Shown here: positions 1 to 5,650 of the stretch, piece by piece
How the letters are laid out: each line of letters opens with the position of its first letter
Position numbering within the stretch: the stretch's first letter is position 1
Virus record (IMG/VR): IMGVR_UViG_3300045988_006129
Span: 1-5,650 of that record
Source: a virus
DNA length: 5,650 nt
Reading direction: 5' to 3' (one strand)
Notes under the pieces: generated by a model
Told to the model about the DNA's origin: nothing
Seen by the model: the letters and a program-made list of their open reading frames with translations, nothing else
The model's database searches: none
Translations under genes and position numbers: made by a program

Positions 1-87
1 GGTTCGCCGGCGCTGGAGGCAGAGCATTCCTCCTTTACATTTGGACGCCGGTTCCCCTACGTCAATTTTACCAAAAAGAAAAAAAAC
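1..87. repeat. Direct terminal repeat, copy 1 (identical to 5564-5650). It marks a circular genome with a 5563-nt unit.
   Basis: Base-by-base comparison shows 1-87 (ggttcgccggcgctggagg...ccaaaaagaaaaaaaac) is identical to 5564-5650. The window ends exactly where the identity ends. Confidence 0.95.
65..73 (-). promoter_or_regulatory. Candidate extended -10 promoter (TGgTAAAAT) for the structural operon. A second copy lies in the terminal repeat at 5628-5636.
   Basis: The minus strand reads gcgttttttttctttttGGTAAAATtgac. TG-n-TAAAAT is preceded by a long T-rich tract. TTGACC and TTGACA hexamers lie upstream but at non-optimal spacing (21 nt or more). The site is about 105 nt upstream of the 34-aa ORF across the circular junction. 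Confidence 0.4.
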
Positions 88-164
88 GCAAGGTCAATTT
101 TTGTCAACCTCACGTTTTTTGATTAGTTCCAACTTATTTTTCCTTCGTTTTCTAGTCTTCTTAG

Positions 165-239
165 GTATTTGTATTTGTATCTTCCTTCGCAACTTGTTGA
201 GGATCTGTATTTTTCATCGTATCTGTATGGGAAGTATCT
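165..239. repeat. Cluster of GTATYT iteron-like short direct repeats in the AT-rich non-coding region
   Basis: GTATTT 165-170, GTATTT 171-176 and GTATCT 177-182 are tandem. Further copies are GTATTT 207-212, GTATCT 219-224, GTATGG 225-230 and GTATCT 234-239. ATCTGTAT occurs at 203-210 and 221-228. TTCCTTCG occurs at 140-147 and 182-189. Confidence 0.6.
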
Positions 240-315
240 TTCTCCTTTGTACCCTATTATGAATTGCACTGTATCGTCTTCGTTAAGGCAGAACTTTGTC
301 TGGATGGCCGTCCGG

Positions 316-333
316 TCGGCGCTGGTGCGCCGA
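316..333. other. GC-rich hairpin with a tetraloop
   Basis: tcggcgc (316-322) pairs with gcgccga (327-333), giving a perfect 7-bp stem with the loop tggt. Confidence 0.45.
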
Positions 334-337
334 ATGA

Positions 338-380
338 AAAGGACGGCGTAGCTTTCCGTAACTACGCCGTTCTGTCCTTT
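338..380 (-). terminator. GC-rich hairpin downstream of VP4, candidate intrinsic terminator
   Basis: The core stem acggcgtag (343-351) pairs with ctacgccgt (362-370) around a 10-nt loop. The outer arms aaaggac (338-344) and gtccttt (374-380) can extend the stem. On the minus-strand transcript the core stem is followed by CCTTTTCATT. Confidence 0.45.
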
Positions 381-404: not shown

Positions 405-1583
405 TTATATTTCATCTCTTCTTAGTTTGGAGAACTTTTCTTGATTTTTCGCGTCGATGTTGTTATAATGTTCTTGCAGACTATAGCCGTGTTGTGCGAG
501 CTGAGCGAATAGAGCGTCGTTGGCGATTTTCCGCCGCCTTCTCTTTATTTCCTTGAGTTCGTCCGACTCGGCTTTTATTATTAGAGCTTCGTAATCCTTT
601 TCCGTTTCGGCGTTTAGTGGTTCGCTGTTGCTGTGTTCAAGATCAAAGAGCTTGTCGAAGTATGCTGGCGGTTTACATCTTTTGCCCTTACTCAGCTGGA
701 TGCTGTCTTTTTGGTATATCTCATCTTTATGGTCTTCGTAGTATCTCCAGCCGATTGATGGTTTTGTGCTGATTCTGCTATCTTCCTCCTCGATACACAT
801 ATCGAGGAATTTTTCTTTTGCCTCACCATATGCTTTCTTGGAACAGTATGCTGCTGTATATGCCATGTCGTTCCATTCTGCCACTCCGATGATTACAAAG
901 CCTTTTCCCCATATCTGGTTGAGCCATGCGCAGGTGTAGTATACTCTGCCCTTCTGTTTTTTATACACCTTCAGTTCTTTCGGGTTTATGTATAAGCTGT
1001 ACACGATTGCATGATAATGCGGTCTGTGCGTTTTCGTGCCGTATTCTCCACTAGCGTAGTACATGAGTTTATTTTTCATGCCTACTTTTTCATCATATAC
1101 TTGGTATTCCCTTTTGTGGTATTCTGTCCACCTTCTCAGCCTTTTCCAGAATGCCGTCAGGTCATTATAGTCTAGTGTCAGGTTCGTTGTATACTCTCCG
1201 CTTGGAGCTTTCAGCACTCCGTTTTTGTCGATGCCTTTGCCTCTTTCGATATTGATTGGAACGTGCTTGTTGTCGTATGTCAACGTCAGGAACCAAGCCT
1301 GATCGTGATACGGTAATTCCATCTCCATTCGATTTGCCCAGCTCTTGCGTCTATCTAAAATGCATCCTTGGCAATGCTTACAAGGACAGATTACAATTTC
1401 GCCGGTTTTGATTTTTGCTTTGACTTCTCGCTCTCTTCTGCGCTGCGTTGTCATGTCGTCAGCTGGCGCTGTGTTCGGCTTGTTCGACATTCCGTATTTG
1501 ATATAGCGCTCTAGTGAACTGAAAAAATCATCTCCGTTTTTCTTCGCTCCGAAGATTCTAATGTTGGGTCTGCCACATGGCAT
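405..1583 (-). CDS. VP4: Replication initiation protein VP4, an HUH rolling-circle endonuclease of the phiX174 gpA family
   Basis: 392-aa ORF. The SD GGAGGTG lies 8 nt upstream of the ATG at 1583. RCR motif I is FLTLTY (nt 1275-1292). The HUH motif is HYHAIVY (nt 999-1019). The catalytic motif YTAAYCSKK has two Tyr residues spaced by 3 residues, as in phiX174 A protein YVAKYVNK (nt 834-860). A Cys cluster CPCKHCQGC precedes ILDRRKSWANR, which resembles the gokushovirus VP4 N-terminal region. Confidence 0.93.
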   Translation of the reverse strand: MPCGRPNIRIFGAKKNGDDFFSSLERYIKYGMSNKPNTAPADDMTTQRRREREVKAKIKTGEIVICPCKHCQGCILDRRKSWANRMEMELPYHDQAWFLTLTYDNKHVPINIERGKGIDKNGVLKAPSGEYTTNLTLDYNDLTAFWKRLRRWTEYHKREYQVYDEKVGMKNKLMYYASGEYGTKTHRPHYHAIVYSLYINPKELKVYKKQKGRVYYTCAWLNQIWGKGFVIIGVAEWNDMAYTAAYCSKKAYGEAKEKFLDMCIEEEDSRISTKPSIGWRYYEDHKDEIYQKDSIQLSKGKRCKPPAYFDKLFDLEHSNSEPLNAETEKDYEALIIKAESDELKEIKRRRRKIANDALFAQLAQHGYSLQEHYNNIDAKNQEKFSKLRRDEI

Positions 1584-1606
1584 GGATGTTTCACCTCCCG
1601 GGGTCG

Positions 1607-1649
1607 CACTGGGGGGAAATGTCCCTCTTGATTACATTTCCCCCCAGTG
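1607..1649. repeat. Perfect 16-bp inverted repeat (hairpin) between the RHH gene and VP4
   Basis: cactggggggaaatgt (1607-1622) is the exact reverse complement of acatttccccccagtg (1634-1649). The loop is 11 nt (ccctcttgatt). On the coding strand the repeat ends 10 nt before the VP4 SD. Confidence 0.9.
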
Positions 1650-1731
1650 ACACAAAAATGCGTCTGACGGTTACTGTCGGGCCTGTATTTTTGTTGCATT
1701 CAGTTTGCACGGCGAAGCCGTCAAACGGTGG

Positions 1732-1896
1732 TTAGTCGCTGTATCCAAGGATCTGTGCGAACATATCTATTGCATCTCTGACAATGTCGCTGTCCATGTA
1801 CTTGTCTCCTGTTTTATGAGCCTCTATATATTTCAGCTCGTCTACCTGTTTTTGTGTTAGGTTGATGTTGATCCTCTTTGCAATCTGACTTTTCAT
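1732..1896 (-). CDS. Ribbon-helix-helix (CopG/Arc/MetJ-like) DNA-binding protein, 54 aa
   Basis: The internal ATG at 1896 is preceded by AGGAGG with a 6-nt spacer (ggctatAGGAGGctaaccATG). The protein is MKSQIAKRININLTQKQVDELKYIEAHKTGDKYMDSDIVRDAIDMFAQILGYSD. It shows an N-terminal basic segment, an alternating beta-strand KRININL, helix A QKQVDELKYIEAH and helix B SDIVRDAIDMF, which is the classic RHH pattern. A TTGACA-17-TATATT promoter lies directly upstream. Confidence 0.68.
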   Translation of the reverse strand: MKSQIAKRININLTQKQVDELKYIEAHKTGDKYMDSDIVRDAIDMFAQILGYSD

Positions 1897-1937
1897 GGTT
1901 AGCCTCCTATAGCCAAGTGTGTGATTGGTACACTCAT

Positions 1938-1966
1938 AATATACACCTCTTTTCTCCACTTGTCAA
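1938..1966 (-). promoter_or_regulatory. Sigma70-type promoter for the RHH (and probably VP4) transcription unit
   Basis: The minus strand reads TAAaatagTTGACAagtggagaaaagaggtgTATATTatgag. The -35 TTGACA is at 1966..1961, the spacer is exactly 17 nt, and the -10 TATATT is at 1943..1938. The promoter starts 5 nt after the VP2 stop and lies about 40 nt upstream of the RHH ATG. Confidence 0.6.
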
Positions 1967-2922: not shown

Positions 2923-4545
2923 TTAGATGGTATCAAGGCCCGGGATGCTGTAGATAGGCATTGCCCTTGTCCACGTCTGGTCGAAGTAAAAGTTGCAGAT
3001 GAATTGACGGCTGTTTTGGCTTTCTACTGCGATCGTTCTATCAATGTTTTGTCTTCCCTCTTTAATCCAGTCGCTCGAGAGTCTCGGCAGTTCGTTGTAC
3101 TTGTCGGCATAGTGCCATGCGTCCAGCGTCTGAGCGTAGGTGCTGCGCATTTCGCCCGTGATCATGTTGGTGCGGTATCTGTAGTCTGCCCAAGCTTCCT
3201 GATAGCCGAATACTTCTTCGTCCTGTGTGTTGCCCTGTGCATAGATTTCCTGATTAAGCACCGCTTGCTCACTGAGGTTTGCAAGCATCGGGTCATAGTA
3301 GGAAAAGCGTGTGCTGCGTGTCCACAGTCGAGAAAGGCCTTGCTGATAGCTGTGATCTACTCGCACTGCTGCCAGACCGATGATGAAACCATGTTCCGTT
3401 GCGCTGTACGTTGCCATGTTCCTGCTCATCGTGGTCATGGAAAATGCTGCGGTATTGCCCTGCGGACTCGTCGAGTCCGTGCTAGACGTCTGAATGACCT
3501 GATTGATGTTGATAGGCAGTCTGTAGCCGCCGATGTATTCCGATCGGTCAAGTCGTGCGTCCGGACTCGTGACACCCCAAGCTCCCTGCAGGATTTCTTT
3601 GTACCGCGTGCCGGTGCGTGCATCTCTTTCCATAATGTGCTGCACTGCGATAGCCTGTCGGAGTTCGTTGATGGTCGCGGCTGTCACGTTGCTCATGTCT
3701 GCGCCCAGTACAGGGTGTAACGAATCGTCTATTTCAGTATAAAACTGTGCCGGTTTTGCTCCGCTCAGTTCATCGCCGTTTTTCCCGGCAAAGTACGGTA
3801 TGAACTGCTTGATTAATCCCACATCGTCGTTTGTCAGTTTTTCTTTCAGATTTGCTGTTCCATATCCGTAGATTGGTGCCGTTCCTGTCATCGGCAGCGT
3901 TATAGCCTCGCCTTTCTGCGGACTCGGCAGGCAGCTTGTAAAGTAGTCCTTATATTTACAGACTTTGAGCGGCAGGCCTCCGGCTTCGGTGTCGGTGAGT
4001 GCCGTTCCTGCGTTGCTTCCTGCGGTCGTGGCGTCCGTCTTGCTCATCGTGACAGGCTGCTGTAAATTTTCGTCTCGAAACCATTCGTTCCAGATTTTGG
4101 CGTATGCCCGGAAAGGCAGGCTGTTTACCTGAAGGTTTTCTACTCCGGTCGGAATGCCGAAGTAATCCGCCAGCGTGCCCACGTTCCAGCCTCCGGTCGG
4201 TGCAGTCGTTTTCGGAGTCGTGTACTCTACCTTTTCTGCCCAGAAGGTCGAGTCGTTTTGGCCCATGAGGTTTTCGAAATGCTCCCACAGCAGCCGCGAT
4301 GGTACGAAGAAGAAGTAAAAGTCACAGTAGCAGTTATCCATGACAGGATACAGCGGTGTGCTCATACGCATAAGCGCATTCAGATCGATCTTTGCCGTGT
4401 CTGCCGGGAGTACCTCGTCACAGTAGATCGGGACGAGATCGCCTTCGTTCATCGTGGTCAGCAGGCTATAATCCCGCTTGAATCTCGCACGCGGTATGTT
4501 TGCATGAGGCACTTGGCTGTAGTGCTGTTCGGCGTTTCGGTTCAT
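2923..4545 (-). CDS. VP1: Major capsid protein VP1 (Microviridae F-like jelly-roll capsid)
   Basis: 540-aa ORF. The N-terminus PRARFKRDYSLLTTMNEGDLVPIYCDEVLPADT and the C-terminus FYFDQTWTRAMPIYSIPGLDTI fit the microvirus capsid pattern. The size is typical of gokushovirus VP1. The ATG overlaps the VP3 stop as ATGA. Confidence 0.95.
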   Translation of the reverse strand: MNRNAEQHYSQVPHANIPRARFKRDYSLLTTMNEGDLVPIYCDEVLPADTAKIDLNALMRMSTPLYPVMDNCYCDFYFFFVPSRLLWEHFENLMGQNDSTFWAEKVEYTTPKTTAPTGGWNVGTLADYFGIPTGVENLQVNSLPFRAYAKIWNEWFRDENLQQPVTMSKTDATTAGSNAGTALTDTEAGGLPLKVCKYKDYFTSCLPSPQKGEAITLPMTGTAPIYGYGTANLKEKLTNDDVGLIKQFIPYFAGKNGDELSGAKPAQFYTEIDDSLHPVLGADMSNVTAATINELRQAIAVQHIMERDARTGTRYKEILQGAWGVTSPDARLDRSEYIGGYRLPININQVIQTSSTDSTSPQGNTAAFSMTTMSRNMATYSATEHGFIIGLAAVRVDHSYQQGLSRLWTRSTRFSYYDPMLANLSEQAVLNQEIYAQGNTQDEEVFGYQEAWADYRYRTNMITGEMRSTYAQTLDAWHYADKYNELPRLSSDWIKEGRQNIDRTIAVESQNSRQFICNFYFDQTWTRAMPIYSIPGLDTI

Positions 4546-5039
4546 TCCTTATTTTCTCCTTTCTGCACAGTTTCATCCGTGTCAGGATTGGGCTTTTTTT
4601 GTTCATCCTGCTGAATTTTGATGCCCATCTTGTCAAGCCATTCCTGTTCACCGGCTGTTGCCATCCAGCTTTCGAAGTTCATGCCGAATGCCTGGCGCAC
4701 ACTGAGCGGAAGCTGATTGAACTCTTCCCGCTTCTCGTTCATCATGTTCATGTATTCGGTGTAGGTCTGTGGCAGCTTGCTGGTGTCGATGTACCAGCCC
4801 GGTTTTGCCAGCACACTTTCGTCACCGGCAGCGTACCGGCTCAGAATTGCCATGACATCGCATTCGTCCTTATAGCTCTGGATTTTCTCGTAGGTGTCCA
4901 CTTCGCCCACCTTTTCCAGATACGGCTGTCCTCGGTCGTCATATCGTTCTTTGTACTCCGGTTCAAACCTGTTGCCCGGCTCGTTCGGCAGCGCCAGCGG
5001 TTTTTCGTCCTCGTAGGGTTTAAAGATTCTTACTCCCAT
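4542..5039 (-). CDS. VP3: Internal scaffolding protein VP3
   Basis: 165-aa acidic ORF directly upstream of VP1, with a 4-nt ATGA overlap. The SD AAGGAG lies 8 nt upstream of the ATG at 5039. Size, position and the segment EEFNQLPLSVRQAFGMNFESW resemble gokushovirus VP3. Confidence 0.78.
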   Translation of the reverse strand: MGVRIFKPYEDEKPLALPNEPGNRFEPEYKERYDDRGQPYLEKVGEVDTYEKIQSYKDECDVMAILSRYAAGDESVLAKPGWYIDTSKLPQTYTEYMNMMNEKREEFNQLPLSVRQAFGMNFESWMATAGEQEWLDKMGIKIQQDEQKKPNPDTDETVQKGENKE

Positions 5040-5283
5040 TGAGCTGCTCCTTTTTCATGAGTTCGATGTTGTACATGAGCATTGGCAGCTCCAGCGGCTT
5101 GATCTTGCCGCTTTCGTTGTCGTACTTGCCTAAAAGATAGATCCGCTTATCTTCGCAGTCGGCTTTCTCCATCTCCTGTGCCATCCACTTGAAGGTGCGG
5201 TCGGCCACCTTTTCATTGACCACGATCAGATTGCCGAAGATGCCAGACAGCTCATCTTTCACTGCGTATACCTGAAATTCCAT
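5020..5283 (-). CDS. Small non-structural protein, VP5-like, function unconfirmed
   Basis: 87-aa ORF. The SD AAGGAG lies 7 nt upstream of the ATG at 5283 and overlaps the preceding stop codon. The N-terminus MEFQVYAVKDELSGIFGNLIVVNEKVADRTF fits the h-Y-x-h-x-D...F...N..A.R.F pattern I recall from small gokushovirus proteins encoded upstream of VP3. The ORF overlaps the VP3 start by 20 nt. Confidence 0.6.
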   Translation of the reverse strand: MEFQVYAVKDELSGIFGNLIVVNEKVADRTFKWMAQEMEKADCEDKRIYLLGKYDNESGKIKPLELPMLMYNIELMKKEQLNGSKNL

Positions 5284-5295
5284 GATGATTCTCCT

Positions 5296-5415
5296 TTACA
5301 GTCGGATGCCGCCGCGCGACGGCTTCGGGTTGACGTTGATCTTCTTCGTCTTTTTTGCGGTGTTGGTAAACACTCGCTTATCTTTTTTGGGATTGACCGG
5401 CATACGATGTGCCAT
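5296..5415 (-). CDS. Small highly basic DNA-binding/packaging protein (gokushovirus VP8-like, functional analogue of phiX174 J)
   Basis: Hand-translated 39-aa ORF, not in the supplied track: MAHRMPVNPKKDKRVFTNTAKKTKKINVNPKPSRGGIRL. It has 12 Lys/Arg residues and 1 acidic residue. The C-terminal RGGIRL matches the RGGIR(F/L) tail I recall from chlamydiaphage/gokushovirus ORF8 proteins. The SD AAGGAGG lies 6 nt upstream of the ATG at 5415. Confidence 0.78.
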   Translation of the reverse strand: MAHRMPVNPKKDKRVFTNTAKKTKKINVNPKPSRGGIRL

Positions 5416-5416
5416 A

Positions 5417-5521
5417 TTATTCCTCCTTATCCAGTTCCATGGCTTGATAGATCTTGTCCAGCATCGCAAGGATCTTCCTCAACTGATTAAAAATCCCGCG
5501 AATGTCTTTCAAAGTGATCAT
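5417..5521 (-). CDS. Hypothetical 34-aa protein, predicted amphipathic helix, first gene of the structural operon
   Basis: Hand-translated: MITLKDIRGIFNQLRKILAMLDKIYQAMELDKEE. The SD AAAGGAGGTG lies 5 nt upstream of the ATG at 5521. The stop TAA is separated by 1 nt from the next gene's ATG (TAAtATG). I recognise no family. Confidence 0.5.
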   Translation of the reverse strand: MITLKDIRGIFNQLRKILAMLDKIYQAMELDKEE

Positions 5522-5563
5522 GGCAGCACCTCCTTTCTGTGGTTGATTTGTGCAAATACCACC

Positions 5564-5650
5564 GGTTCGCCGGCGCTGGAGGCAGAGCATTCCTCCTTTA
5601 CATTTGGACGCCGGTTCCCCTACGTCAATTTTACCAAAAAGAAAAAAAAC
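5564..5650. repeat. Direct terminal repeat, copy 2 (identical to 1-87)
   Basis: Exact 87/87 identity with the window start. The offset of 5563 nt gives the genome length. Confidence 0.95.

What the first reader, a model, noticed from the sequence alone, without database searches (positions are those of the whole stretch)
1584..1966. RHH repressor-like gene with its own consensus promoter directly upstream of the HUH Rep gene, a plasmid copG-repB-like control cassette inside a microvirus
Seen in sequence: a near-consensus promoter (TTGACA-17-TATATT) starts 5 nt after the VP2 stop. It is followed by a strong SD and a 54-aa ORF with a textbook ribbon-helix-helix pattern. A 148-nt spacer and then VP4 (HUH Rep) follow on the same strand. 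A terminator-like hairpin follows VP4. Established knowledge: canonical gokushovirus gene sets (VP1-VP5, VP8) do not include an RHH regulator. In pMV158-family rolling-circle plasmids the RHH protein CopG is co-transcribed with the HUH initiator RepB and represses their shared promoter to control copy number. Inference: this phage may carry an autoregulated Rep module separate from the structural operon. That could throttle replication, for example to allow a carrier state, timing control or superinfection control. No toxin partner and no integrase are present, so a toxin-antitoxin or lysogeny role is not supported.
Basis: partly seen in the sequence, partly recalled or inferred. Interest (0 to 1): 0.8.

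Follow-up and report, generated by a model that had tools for sequence, protein, structure and literature searches.

The report
Small DNA-binding regulator in a microvirus
A tiny unannotated gene in a gut single-stranded-DNA phage encodes a ribbon-helix-helix DNA-binding protein with its own strong promoter just ahead of the replication gene; it probably shuts that promoter off, and no such regulator turned up for this phage group in the papers I could search.

Summary
The window is a circular 5563-nt gokushovirus with all genes on the minus strand. Between VP2 and Rep (VP4) lie a TTGACA-17-TATATT promoter, an AGGAGG ribosome site and a 54-aa ORF.

The ORF is a real gene: dN/dS is about 0.11, and at least 258 protein clusters exist, essentially all on microvirus-sized contigs. 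It is a divergent ribbon-helix-helix (RHH) protein. The family profile aligns full-length with CopG (hhalign 83%), and 11 of 36 members hit Pfam RHH_1. No GenBank record examined annotates it, and Pfam, PHROGs and NCBIfam have no dedicated family.

New findings:
- The promoter carries GTGTA-type repeats at an exact 13-bp period.
- Relatives have a second promoter of the same design after Rep; the window has lost it.
- Repeats, promoters and gene co-occur.
- RHH alleles are swapped between phage backbones.
- 22% of alleles, not the window's, end in a copy of the Gram-positive SSB tip (…DDLPF).
- The "spacer" holds a strongly covarying stem-loop that belongs to Rep, not to the cassette.

Auto-repression in the CopG manner is the best mechanism but is inferred, not shown. 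The Rep is not RepB-type, so the likeness is analogy, not membership.

The parts
1961..1966 (-). -35 hexamer TTGACA of promoter P1
   Evidence: Conserved as TTGAC(A) in 45 distinct related sequences.
1938..1943 (-). -10 hexamer TATATT of P1 (TATAAT in many relatives), 17 nt from the -35
1916..1959 (-). Candidate operator array: GTGGA (1959-1955), GTGTA (1946-1942), GTGTA (1933-1929) and inverted ACACT (1920-1916), spaced exactly 13 bp. The array covers the promoter spacer, the -10 and the predicted +1. The last two copies can also pair as a small 5' hairpin.
   Evidence: Unique in the window, 0 of 200 shuffles. The block GGTGTATAWTATGRGTGTA is nearly invariant. The periodic motif occurs only at P1 and P2 of RHH-carrying genomes. 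The R/Y positions pair as A-T, G-C or G-T and never A-C (read).
1903..1908 (-). Shine-Dalgarno AGGAGG, 6 nt before the ATG
   Evidence: A ribosome site is conserved in relatives.
1732..1896 (-). 54-aa ribbon-helix-helix protein gene, stop codon included. Strand K7-T14 (KRININLT), helix 15-27, helix 35-49.
   Evidence: dN/dS 0.11. At least 258 clusters. hhalign to CopG 83%. 11 of 36 members hit RHH_1. Helices from AlphaFold2.
1703..1726 (-). GC-rich hairpin right after the stop codon, with no U-run; not a canonical terminator
   Evidence: A hairpin of varying sequence sits at this position in many relatives and is absent in those with 92-98-nt spacers.
1607..1658 (-). Conserved flank TTTTTGTGT (1658-1650) plus a 16-bp perfect stem (1649-1634 and 1622-1607) with loop AATCAAGAGGG (1633-1623), just 5' of the Rep ribosome site. 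It belongs to the Rep region, not to the RHH cassette.
   Evidence: Present in 54 of 54 loci, including 3 without the RHH gene, in 34 distinct versions. 14 of 16 pairs show compensatory changes. Fold z -4.4 as RNA and -5.5 as DNA. No Rfam family.
405..1599 (-). Rep (VP4) gene with its ribosome site GGGAGGTG (1599-1592); HUH rolling-circle initiator of the microvirus type
   Evidence: Pfam PF23343, E 1.8e-13. phrog_942, E 1e-83.
333..370 (-). Terminator-like hairpin with T-run after Rep; the likely end of the P1 transcription unit
   Evidence: Nearly identical in four relatives.
121..288 (-). Segment that replaces the second promoter (P2) and accessory-ORF cassette found in close relatives. Homology breaks exactly at the P2 -35 position.
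   Evidence: No match in GenBank phages.

Best explanation
The 54-aa ORF encodes a dimeric ribbon-helix-helix DNA-binding protein of a family so far seen only in one clade of gut gokushoviruses.

It is transcribed from a strong sigma-70/sigma-A consensus promoter (P1) placed right after VP2. It is most probably co-transcribed with the Rep gene, up to the conserved terminator after Rep.

The protein most likely binds the short GTGT(A) sites that recur every 13 bp across the P1 spacer, the -10 and the transcription start. It would thereby block RNA polymerase. This gives negative feedback on its own synthesis and on Rep, in the manner of CopG at the pMV158 Pcr promoter. In relatives the same protein would also control a second promoter of the same design downstream of Rep; the window has lost that promoter.

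Shown: the gene is real, and the RHH assignment, the conservation of the promoter and repeats, and their co-occurrence with the gene all hold. Inferred: binding to the repeats, repression, and co-transcription with Rep.
For: Gene reality:
- dN/dS is 0.11 over 55 pairs, and the other frames are full of stops.
- At least 258 clusters exist, essentially all on contigs of about 5.9 kb or less.
- The ORF always lies between VP2 and VP4.

RHH fold:
- The strand KRININLT alternates polar and hydrophobic residues. R8, N10, N12, L13, T14, S36, D37, R40, A42 and I43 are invariant.
- AlphaFold2 places helices at 15-27 and 35-49 after an extended N-terminus.
- Member P0140 passes the Pfam RHH_1 curated cutoff, and the P0157 N-terminus scores 33 bits.
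- 11 of 36 members hit RHH_1.
- The family profile against CopG gives 83% probability and E 9e-6, full length and in register.
- PDB, PHROG and NCBIfam cross-hits are RHH proteins: CopG, ParD, ORF56, phrog_876 repressor, aCcr1 and NikR.
- P0126 is a natural tandem double-RHH.

Promoter and operator:
- P1 is conserved at a fixed distance.
- The periodic repeat is unique in the window.
- The periodic motif occurs only at P1 and P2, only on the coding strand, and only in RHH-carrying genomes. It is absent from 3 RHH-less relatives.
- 51 of 51 microvirus contigs with either block carry the gene.
- In 50,697 GenBank phage records the P1 block matches significantly only in the six RHH-carrying records.
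- The DNA-contacting strand residues and the repeats are both invariant, while the rest of the protein is swapped freely.

Operon:
- No canonical terminator or promoter lies in the spacer.
- A terminator follows Rep.

The CopG reference system is documented in PMC2724298.
Against: - No binding or expression data exist.
- The window's own sequence does not reach any Pfam threshold.
- Fold searches are non-significant.
- A 13-bp period is unusual for cooperative RHH arrays; known ones use about 7-11 bp (my knowledge).
- The -10-proximal copy (GGTG-TATAAT) also occurs in ordinary Bacillus phage promoters.
- About 7 independent non-microvirus contigs carry the exact blocks without the gene.
- The third and fourth copies could instead be a 5' mRNA hairpin.
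- Promoters and gene may co-occur only because they were inherited together.
- SSB-tip tails in 22% of alleles point to a replication role that simple repression does not explain.
Confidence: 0.5

Rival explanations
1. The protein is a replication accessory or adaptor. It binds phage DNA near the promoter or origin region and helps Rep or host replication proteins, as RHH accessory proteins help HUH relaxases at oriT. In tailed alleles it would do this by presenting an SSB-like tip that recruits SSB-binding host proteins. Transcription control would be secondary or absent.
For: - 45 of 201 distinct alleles end in an acidic run plus [LI]P[FY], on nine different linker lengths.
- DDDLPF is the Gram-positive SSB tip (PMC5531588).
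- The gene sits next to the HUH Rep and to a conserved stem-loop that is a candidate origin.
- The third and fourth GTGT copies form a duplex hairpin in single-stranded DNA, which an RHH could bind.
Against: - The window's allele and most others lack the tip.
- The stem-loop and its flank exist unchanged in relatives without the gene.
- The stem sequence varies, so it is not a sequence-specific site.
- The repeats sit on core promoter elements at two promoters.
Confidence: 0.2
2. The protein is an immunity or carrier-state repressor. It uses the same DNA binding, but its main role is to silence both promoters of resident or incoming genomes. That would allow persistence without lysis or exclude related phages.
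For: - Relatives have two promoters with the same repeats.
- Alleles are exchanged between backbones as immunity modules are in temperate phages.
Against: - No integrase, and no integrated copies in 185,579 species genomes.
- The recognition strand and the repeats are invariant across alleles. Alleles would therefore not give distinct immunities.
- The window has only one of the two promoters.
Confidence: 0.12
3. The protein binds DNA, but the periodic repeats are not its target. The repeats would be promoter-intrinsic features, a 5' mRNA hairpin or Rep-binding sites, and the protein would act elsewhere, for example on host genes.
For: - GGTG-TATAAT occurs in unrelated Firmicutes phage promoters.
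- The exact blocks occur in a few contigs without the gene.
- GTGTCA also flanks the Rep-proximal stem-loop in RHH-less relatives.
- The pairing pattern of the R/Y positions fits an RNA hairpin.
Against: - The first, third and inverted fourth copies are missing from those other promoters.
- The full periodic array is confined to RHH-carrying genomes.
- No other DNA-binding regulator was recognised among the genome's ORFs.
Confidence: 0.1
4. The protein is the RHH antitoxin of a toxin-antitoxin pair.
For: Weak CcdA and ParD cross-hits.
Against: - The next gene is Rep, and no toxin family is found in any ORF.
- The protein is only the 54-aa RHH core and has no toxin-binding extension.
Confidence: 0.02

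Closest known systems
CopG-RepB copy-control cassette of plasmid pMV158
   Same: A small RHH protein of about 45-54 aa is encoded immediately upstream of an HUH rolling-circle initiator on the same strand, behind a single consensus promoter. In pMV158 the two genes are co-transcribed and CopG represses that promoter (PMC2724298). The family profile aligns full-length with CopG.
   Different: - The Rep here is microvirus VP4/gpA-type, not RepB.
- The candidate operator is a 13-bp-periodic array over the -10 and +1, not a pseudosymmetric element at -35 (my knowledge of CopG).
- No antisense RNA partner is evident.
- A covarying stem-loop lies between the two genes.
- The element is a lytic-type single-stranded-DNA phage, not a plasmid.
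Omega repressor of plasmid pSM19035 (inc18 family)
   Same: From my knowledge, this RHH protein recognises short repeated sub-sites in direct or inverted orientation. It controls several promoters of one replicon, including copy-number control. Here, short GTGT/ACAC sites in both orientations lie at two promoters.
   Different: - Omega sites are contiguous 7-bp heptads; here the period is 13 bp.
- There is no sequence relationship beyond the fold.
- Binding is not tested here.
Arc and Mnt repressors of phage P22
   Same: These are phage-encoded RHH repressors of about 53-83 aa that act on promoter-overlapping operators (my knowledge). The strand pattern is alike, with polar residues alternating with hydrophobic ones.
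   Different: - P22 is a temperate double-stranded-DNA phage.
- Arc and Mnt control an antirepressor, not a replication initiator.
- No significant sequence match was found.
ORF56 of plasmid pRN1 (Sulfolobus)
   Same: An RHH copy-control protein encoded upstream of the replication protein. Weak hits were found in NCBIfam (E 1e-4 for one member) and in the PDB (2k9i).
   Different: It is an archaeal plasmid with a different replication protein, and the similarity is sub-threshold.
RHH accessory proteins of conjugative relaxosomes (TraY, TrwA, NikA)
   Same: An RHH protein is encoded next to an HUH nuclease and binds near its nick site, often also repressing its own promoter (my knowledge).
   Different: The nick site of this phage is unknown, and the candidate sites lie on promoters. 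The candidate origin stem-loop exists without the RHH gene in relatives.
C-terminal tip of bacterial SSB (DDDIPF / DDDLPF)
   Same: 45 of 201 alleles of this family end in an acidic run plus LPF. This is identical in form to the Gram-positive SSB tip (PMC5531588).
   Different: The tip sits on a duplex-DNA-binding RHH domain, not on an OB-fold single-strand binder, and the window's allele lacks it.

Membership tests
Ribbon-helix-helix superfamily (Pfam RHH_1, CopG/Arc/MetJ type) | An N-terminal strand with alternating polar and hydrophobic residues, followed by two helices, in about 45 residues | tested here: met
   KRININLT, then helices at 15-27 and 35-49.
Ribbon-helix-helix superfamily (Pfam RHH_1, CopG/Arc/MetJ type) | The window's own sequence passes a curated RHH profile | tested here: not met
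   No RHH hit in Pfam for the 54-aa sequence alone; only a chance-level NPH3 hit.
Ribbon-helix-helix superfamily (Pfam RHH_1, CopG/Arc/MetJ type) | A family-level profile relationship to known RHH proteins | tested here: met
   P0140 scores 22.4 bits against a cutoff of 20.5, and the P0157 N-terminus scores 33 bits. 11 of 36 members hit RHH_1. hhalign to CopG gives 83% and E 9e-6.
Ribbon-helix-helix superfamily (Pfam RHH_1, CopG/Arc/MetJ type) | A dimer formed by pairing of the two N-terminal strands, with DNA binding through that ribbon | not testable with these tools
   Only monomer models are possible here and the fold searches are non-significant. A natural tandem double-RHH (P0126) gives indirect support.
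pMV158-type CopG-RepB control cassette | The RHH gene lies directly upstream of rep, on the same strand, behind one promoter | tested here: met
   The layout holds in the window and in all relatives. Co-transcription itself is not testable here.
pMV158-type CopG-RepB control cassette | The initiator belongs to the RepB family | tested here: not met
   The Rep matches PF23343 REP_ORF2-G2P and phrog_942, the microvirus VP4 type.
pMV158-type CopG-RepB control cassette | An operator overlaps the promoter and is bound by the RHH protein | tested here: inconclusive
   Periodic GTGT(A) repeats overlap the spacer, the -10 and +1 and co-occur with the gene. Binding is not tested, and the layout differs from the CopG operator.
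pMV158-type CopG-RepB control cassette | An antisense RNA acts as a second controller of rep translation | tested here: inconclusive
   The plus strand has a terminator-like site at 1662-1682 and weak promoter-like sites inside Rep. That spacer segment is not shared with most relatives. No Rfam match.
Type II toxin-antitoxin system with RHH antitoxin | A toxin gene lies adjacent in the same operon | tested here: not met
   The downstream gene is Rep, and no toxin family is found in any ORF.
Relaxosome-type RHH accessory factor | Binding sites lie next to the nick site of the partner HUH enzyme | not testable with these tools
   The origin of this phage group is not known. The candidate stem-loop (1607-1649) is independent of the gene.
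Canonical gokushovirus genes (VP1-VP5, VP8) | Homology to one of the core proteins | tested here: not met
   The core genes are all identified elsewhere in the window. The ORF matches none of them and is unannotated in the GenBank relatives.

The most novel reading that the evidence does not exclude
The family is a site-specific DNA adaptor that couples transcription control to replication. The RHH domain would anchor the protein on the periodic GTGT sites, either in duplex DNA or as the small hairpin these sites form in the single-stranded genome. In many alleles an exact copy of the Gram-positive SSB tip would then recruit SSB-binding host proteins such as primosome, helicase or nuclease partners to that spot, or titrate them away from SSB. 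The window's tail-less allele would be a reduced form that keeps only the DNA-binding and repressor half. An SSB tip grafted onto a duplex-DNA-binding domain did not turn up in my limited literature searches.
Probability: 0.15. Interest if true: 0.8.

Novelty: new variant of a known kind. Interest (0 to 1): 0.6.

Why it matters
Microviruses are textbook minimal phages. From my knowledge, phiX174 gene expression is described as running from constitutive promoters with leaky terminators. Surveys of thousands of microvirus genomes report almost no accessory genes with assigned functions beyond methyltransferases and lysis genes (PMC9239249).

A conserved, strongly constrained DNA-binding regulator with one or two cognate promoters would mean that an abundant clade of gut gokushoviruses runs a dedicated control circuit over its replication initiator. 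This gives concrete, cheap experiments: band shifts, reporters and knockouts in a synthesised genome.

The promoter type and the DDDLPF tails also point to a Gram-positive host for a phage clade whose host I could not identify here. The free exchange of alleles, and the SSB-tip variants, hint at an arms race or at hijacking of host factors that could be tested directly.

Tried and rejected
- **Fold searches.** The single-sequence and alignment-based AlphaFold2 monomers were searched against the PDB and viral libraries. Nothing was significant, though RHH proteins top the named hits. A 54-residue monomer of an obligate dimer is a poor query.
- **Narrow-profile PDB search.** It returned only irrelevant coiled-coil hits. 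The broader profile was needed.
- **Loose hairpin pattern scan.** The scan of viral contigs returned mostly chance hits in large unrelated contigs and was discarded.
- **Rfam.** No family anywhere in the window.
- **Integrated copies and host.** The scan of 185,579 species genomes found only a weak unrelated RHH in Demequina.
- **Origin by nick motif.** The complement of the stem-loop's loop reads CTCTTGAT, which recalls the CTTG/AT nick motif of phiX174 and pC194-type initiators (my memory). It lies on the non-coding strand, and microviruses package the coding-sense strand, so I did not adopt it.
- **Relic of the SSB tip.** After the stop codon the frame reads PPF (GYSD*PPF against GYPDDLPF in P0119). 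The nucleotide match is weak, and the same bases form the post-stop hairpin. I treat it as probably coincidence.
- **Longer 75-aa reading from GTG 1959.** The extension lies inside the promoter, and its conservation is at DNA level only; many relatives have stops there.
- **Intrinsic terminator between the RHH gene and Rep.** The hairpins lack U-runs, and relatives with spacers of 92-98 nt have only the Rep-proximal stem-loop.
Full report
**What the window is.** The window is one circular gokushovirus genome of 5563 nt; bases 1-87 repeat at 5564-5650. All genes run on the minus strand:
- Rep/VP4: 405-1583
- the small ORF: 1732-1896
- VP2: 1972-2910
- VP1: 2923-4545
- VP3: 4542-5039
- VP5: 5020-5283
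- a 39-aa basic VP8/J-like protein: 5296-5415

The nearest GenBank relatives are pig and human gut Microviridae.

**Checking the observation.**
- VP2 stops at 1972-1974. TTGACA follows 5 nt later (1966-1961), then 17 nt, then TATATT (1943-1938).
- AGGAGG lies at 1908-1903, the ATG at 1896, and the ORF encodes 54 aa.
- After 148 nt comes the Rep ATG at 1583. A terminator-like hairpin follows Rep at 370-343.
- The promoter matches 11 of 12 positions and is the best site in the window on either strand.
- The same promoter sits at the same distance from the ORF in 49 of 51 related loci. One exception has it displaced about 250 nt upstream, and one locus is cut off.
- It is the best or second-best site in 36 of 36 relatives in which the scan found it.

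**The ORF is a real gene.**
- Homologues form at least 258 clusters at 90% identity, essentially all on contigs of about 5.9 kb or less.
- An exhaustive profile search finds only 42 representatives at the 50% level, so this is a tight family.
- The gene always lies between VP2 and VP4.
- Pairwise dN/dS has a median of 0.11, and the other reading frames carry stops in most or all sequences.
- None of the GenBank records examined annotates it.
- Pfam, PHROGs and NCBIfam have no dedicated family.
- Full-text searches found no paper on RHH proteins or transcription regulators in microviruses.
- The large survey of microvirus diversity lists only methyltransferases and lysis genes as accessory genes with assigned functions (PMC9239249).

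**It is a ribbon-helix-helix protein.**
- Residues 7-14 (KRININLT) alternate polar and hydrophobic residues, as an RHH strand should.
- R8, N10, N12, L13, T14, S36, D37, R40, A42 and I43 are invariant.
- SDIVRDAI matches the usual start of RHH helix 2 (my knowledge).
- AlphaFold2 with an alignment gives an extended N-terminus and helices at 15-27 and 35-49, with mean pLDDT 74.
- The window's own sequence does not pass any Pfam model.
- Family member P0140 passes the curated RHH_1 cutoff, and the N-terminal domain of P0157 scores 33 bits.
- 11 of 36 members hit RHH_1, far ahead of any other family.
- The family profile aligns with CopG over the whole domain, in register, at 83% probability and E 9e-6.
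- Sub-threshold hits in the PDB, PHROGs and NCBIfam are again RHH proteins: CopG, ParD, ORF56, a phage repressor family, aCcr1 and NikR.
- One relative, P0126, is a tandem double-RHH, a natural single-chain dimer.
- Fold searches were non-significant.

I put the RHH assignment at about 0.85-0.9.

**A periodic repeat array on the promoter.**
- Across 45 distinct related sequences the block GGTGTATAWTATGRGTGTA…ACACYT is almost invariant, while the DNA further upstream is unrelated. That is much more than a promoter needs.
- In the window the array reads GTGGA (1959-1955), GTGTA (1946-1942), GTGTA (1933-1929) and an inverted ACACT (1920-1916), each 13 bp from the last.
- It spans the promoter spacer, the -10 and the predicted start.
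- The triple repeat is unique in the window, with 0 of 200 shuffles producing it. GTGTA itself is not enriched.
- The last two copies can also pair as a 5-6-bp hairpin at the 5' end of the transcript. Their variable positions pair as A-T, G-C or G-T and never A-C (read).

**A second promoter of the same design in relatives.**
- Many relatives have a perfect TTGACA-17-TATAAT promoter about 100 nt after Rep, carrying three GTGTA copies at the same 13-bp period.
- In the window, homology to close relatives runs up to the -35 position of that promoter. Unrelated sequence (about 121-288) then replaces it, so the window has lost it.
- The terminator after Rep and a second strong terminator (120-73) are conserved.

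**Co-occurrence of repeats, promoters and gene.**
- The periodic motif occurs only at these two sites, only on the coding strand and only in genomes that carry the gene. Three relatives without the gene have neither the motif nor these promoters.
- All 51 microvirus contigs in IMG/VR that carry either exact block also carry the gene.
- Among 50,697 GenBank phage records, the first block matches significantly in exactly the six that have the gene. The second block matches four of those six.
- Caveat 1: about seven independent non-microvirus contigs carry the exact 19-mers without the gene.
- Caveat 2: ordinary Bacillus phage promoters share TTGACA-17-(G)TGTATAAT, though not the other copies.
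- Caveat 3: co-occurrence could simply reflect shared descent.

**The "spacer" is not empty.**
- Just 5' of the Rep ribosome site lies a perfect 16-bp stem (1649-1634 and 1622-1607). Its loop is AATCAAGAGGG and its conserved 5' flank is TTTTTGTGT.
- All 54 loci have it, in 34 distinct versions. The stem sequence changes between clades while pairing is kept, and the loop is constant.
- RNAalifold finds 16 pairs, 14 of them with compensatory double changes.
- The spacer folds far better than shuffles: z is -4.4 as RNA and -5.5 as DNA.
- No Rfam family matches.
- The element is also present upstream of Rep in relatives without the RHH gene: Dulem viruses 202 and 206 and chicken microvirus mg7_10. 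It therefore belongs to Rep, and the promoter-plus-gene unit is an insertion between VP2 and it.
- Its role is open. Candidates are an origin for either strand or an RNA element affecting Rep.
- Similar covarying hairpins upstream of Rep were reported in other microvirus clades, with the function left open (PMC9865509).

**Allele exchange and SSB-like tails.**
- RHH alleles do not follow the phage backbone. The window and L026 have 99% identical Rep proteins but 57% identical RHH proteins. The window and L001 have 91% identical RHH proteins on Rep backbones only 54% identical.
- The strand residues and the repeats stay constant, while the helices and C-terminus vary.
- 45 of 201 distinct alleles, in nine length classes, end in an acidic run plus [LI]P[FY], for example SEEEDLPF or DDDDDLPF.
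- This is the form of the Gram-positive SSB C-terminal tip, DDDLPF (PMC5531588). The window's allele ends GYSD and lacks it.
- Together with the promoter type and the strong Shine-Dalgarno sites, this points to a Gram-positive host. That is an inference.

**Mechanism.** The best-supported model has four steps.
1. P1 drives a transcript through the RHH gene and Rep to the terminator at 370-333.
2. RHH dimers bind the GTGT sites over the core promoter.
3. Binding shuts P1 off.
4. This gives negative feedback on Rep dosage, as CopG does for RepB (PMC2724298).

In relatives the second promoter would be under the same control. The gene, the fold assignment, the conservation and the co-occurrence are shown. 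Binding, repression and co-transcription are inferred. I rate this model at 0.5. The rivals are:
- a replication adaptor role, supported by the SSB tips: 0.2
- an immunity or carrier-state repressor: 0.12
- a DNA binder whose target is not the repeats: 0.1
- an antitoxin: 0.02

**Comparison with known systems.**
- The layout works like copG-repB, but it is not a member of that system. The Rep is of the microvirus VP4 type, and the candidate operator differs in place and form. No antisense RNA partner is evident.
- The short sites in both orientations at more than one promoter recall the omega repressor of pSM19035 (my knowledge), though the 13-bp period is unusual.
- No toxin or integrase gene was found, and no integrated copy.

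**Verdict.** This is a new variant of a known kind: an RHH regulator cassette placed ahead of an HUH initiator, here inside a microvirus. It has its own promoter array, freely exchanged alleles and SSB-tip variants. Interest 0.6.

Noticed in passing
window 1607-1658 (minus strand); also L172 2655-2703, L173 2705-2752, L174 2641-2686: A strongly covarying stem-loop with constant loop (A)TCAAGAG and flank TTTGTGTCA lies immediately 5' of the Rep ribosome site. It is also present in gokushoviruses that lack the RHH gene. It is a candidate origin or Rep control element, and no Rfam family matches it.
   Followed up: yes
relatives: P0055, P0099, P0104, P0119, P0133, P0135, P0139, P0143, P0150, P0151; L004, L005, L029, L035-L037, L039, L041, L042: 22% of distinct alleles of the RHH family end in an acidic run plus LPF (EEEDLPF, DDDDDLPF, EEDELPF and similar). 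This is the same form as the Gram-positive SSB C-terminal tip DDDLPF. The window's allele lacks it.
   Followed up: partly
relatives, about 100 nt after the Rep stop (e.g. L005 1217-1260, L028 4520-4565); window 121-288: A second perfect consensus promoter with three GTGTA copies at a 13-bp period drives a variable small accessory ORF in relatives. In the window the homology breaks exactly at its -35, and unrelated sequence with no GenBank phage match takes its place.
   Followed up: yes
window 1732-1896 compared with L001, L026, L028 and others: RHH alleles are exchanged between phage backbones: Rep 99% with RHH 57% identical (window and L026), and Rep 54% with RHH 91% identical (window and L001). 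The conserved promoter block and the stem-loop flank could serve as recombination joints.
   Followed up: partly
window 1623-1633: The complement of the stem-loop's loop reads CTCTTGAT. It contains the CTTG/AT nick motif recalled for phiX174 and pC194-type initiators, but lies on the non-coding strand.
   Followed up: no
L185 (IMGVR_UViG_3300022212_000150), minus strand, position about 1112 counted on the reverse complement: A 4.6-kb non-microvirus contig carries the 13-bp unit GGTGTATAATAAA three times in tandem just upstream of a ribosome site and ATG. The period is the same as in the microvirus promoters, and no RHH family member is present.
   Followed up: no
P0126 (125 aa) and P0157 (308 aa): P0126 is a tandem double-RHH version of the family. 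P0157 has an RHH_1 domain that matches the family profile fused to a T4-type terminase large-subunit N-terminal domain.
   Followed up: partly
window 5417-5521 (minus strand) and 5522-5590: A 34-aa ORF (MITLKDIRGIFNQLRKILAMLDKIYQAMELDKEE) with a strong ribosome site lies upstream of the VP8-like gene and is conserved in relatives. Just upstream, an AAAGGAGG site lies in a GGAGG…CCTCC hairpin. No family match.
   Followed up: no
window 73-120 and 30-65 (minus strand): A strong terminator (17-pair stem plus T-run) is followed by a conserved TTGACG-17-AAATGT element that has a good -35 but a poor -10. Apart from P1, no convincing sigma-70 promoter was found upstream of the structural genes in the window.
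   Followed up: partly
window 1-87 and 5564-5650: The window ends are an exact 87-nt direct repeat, so the sequence is a circular 5563-nt genome with assembly overlap.
   Followed up: yes
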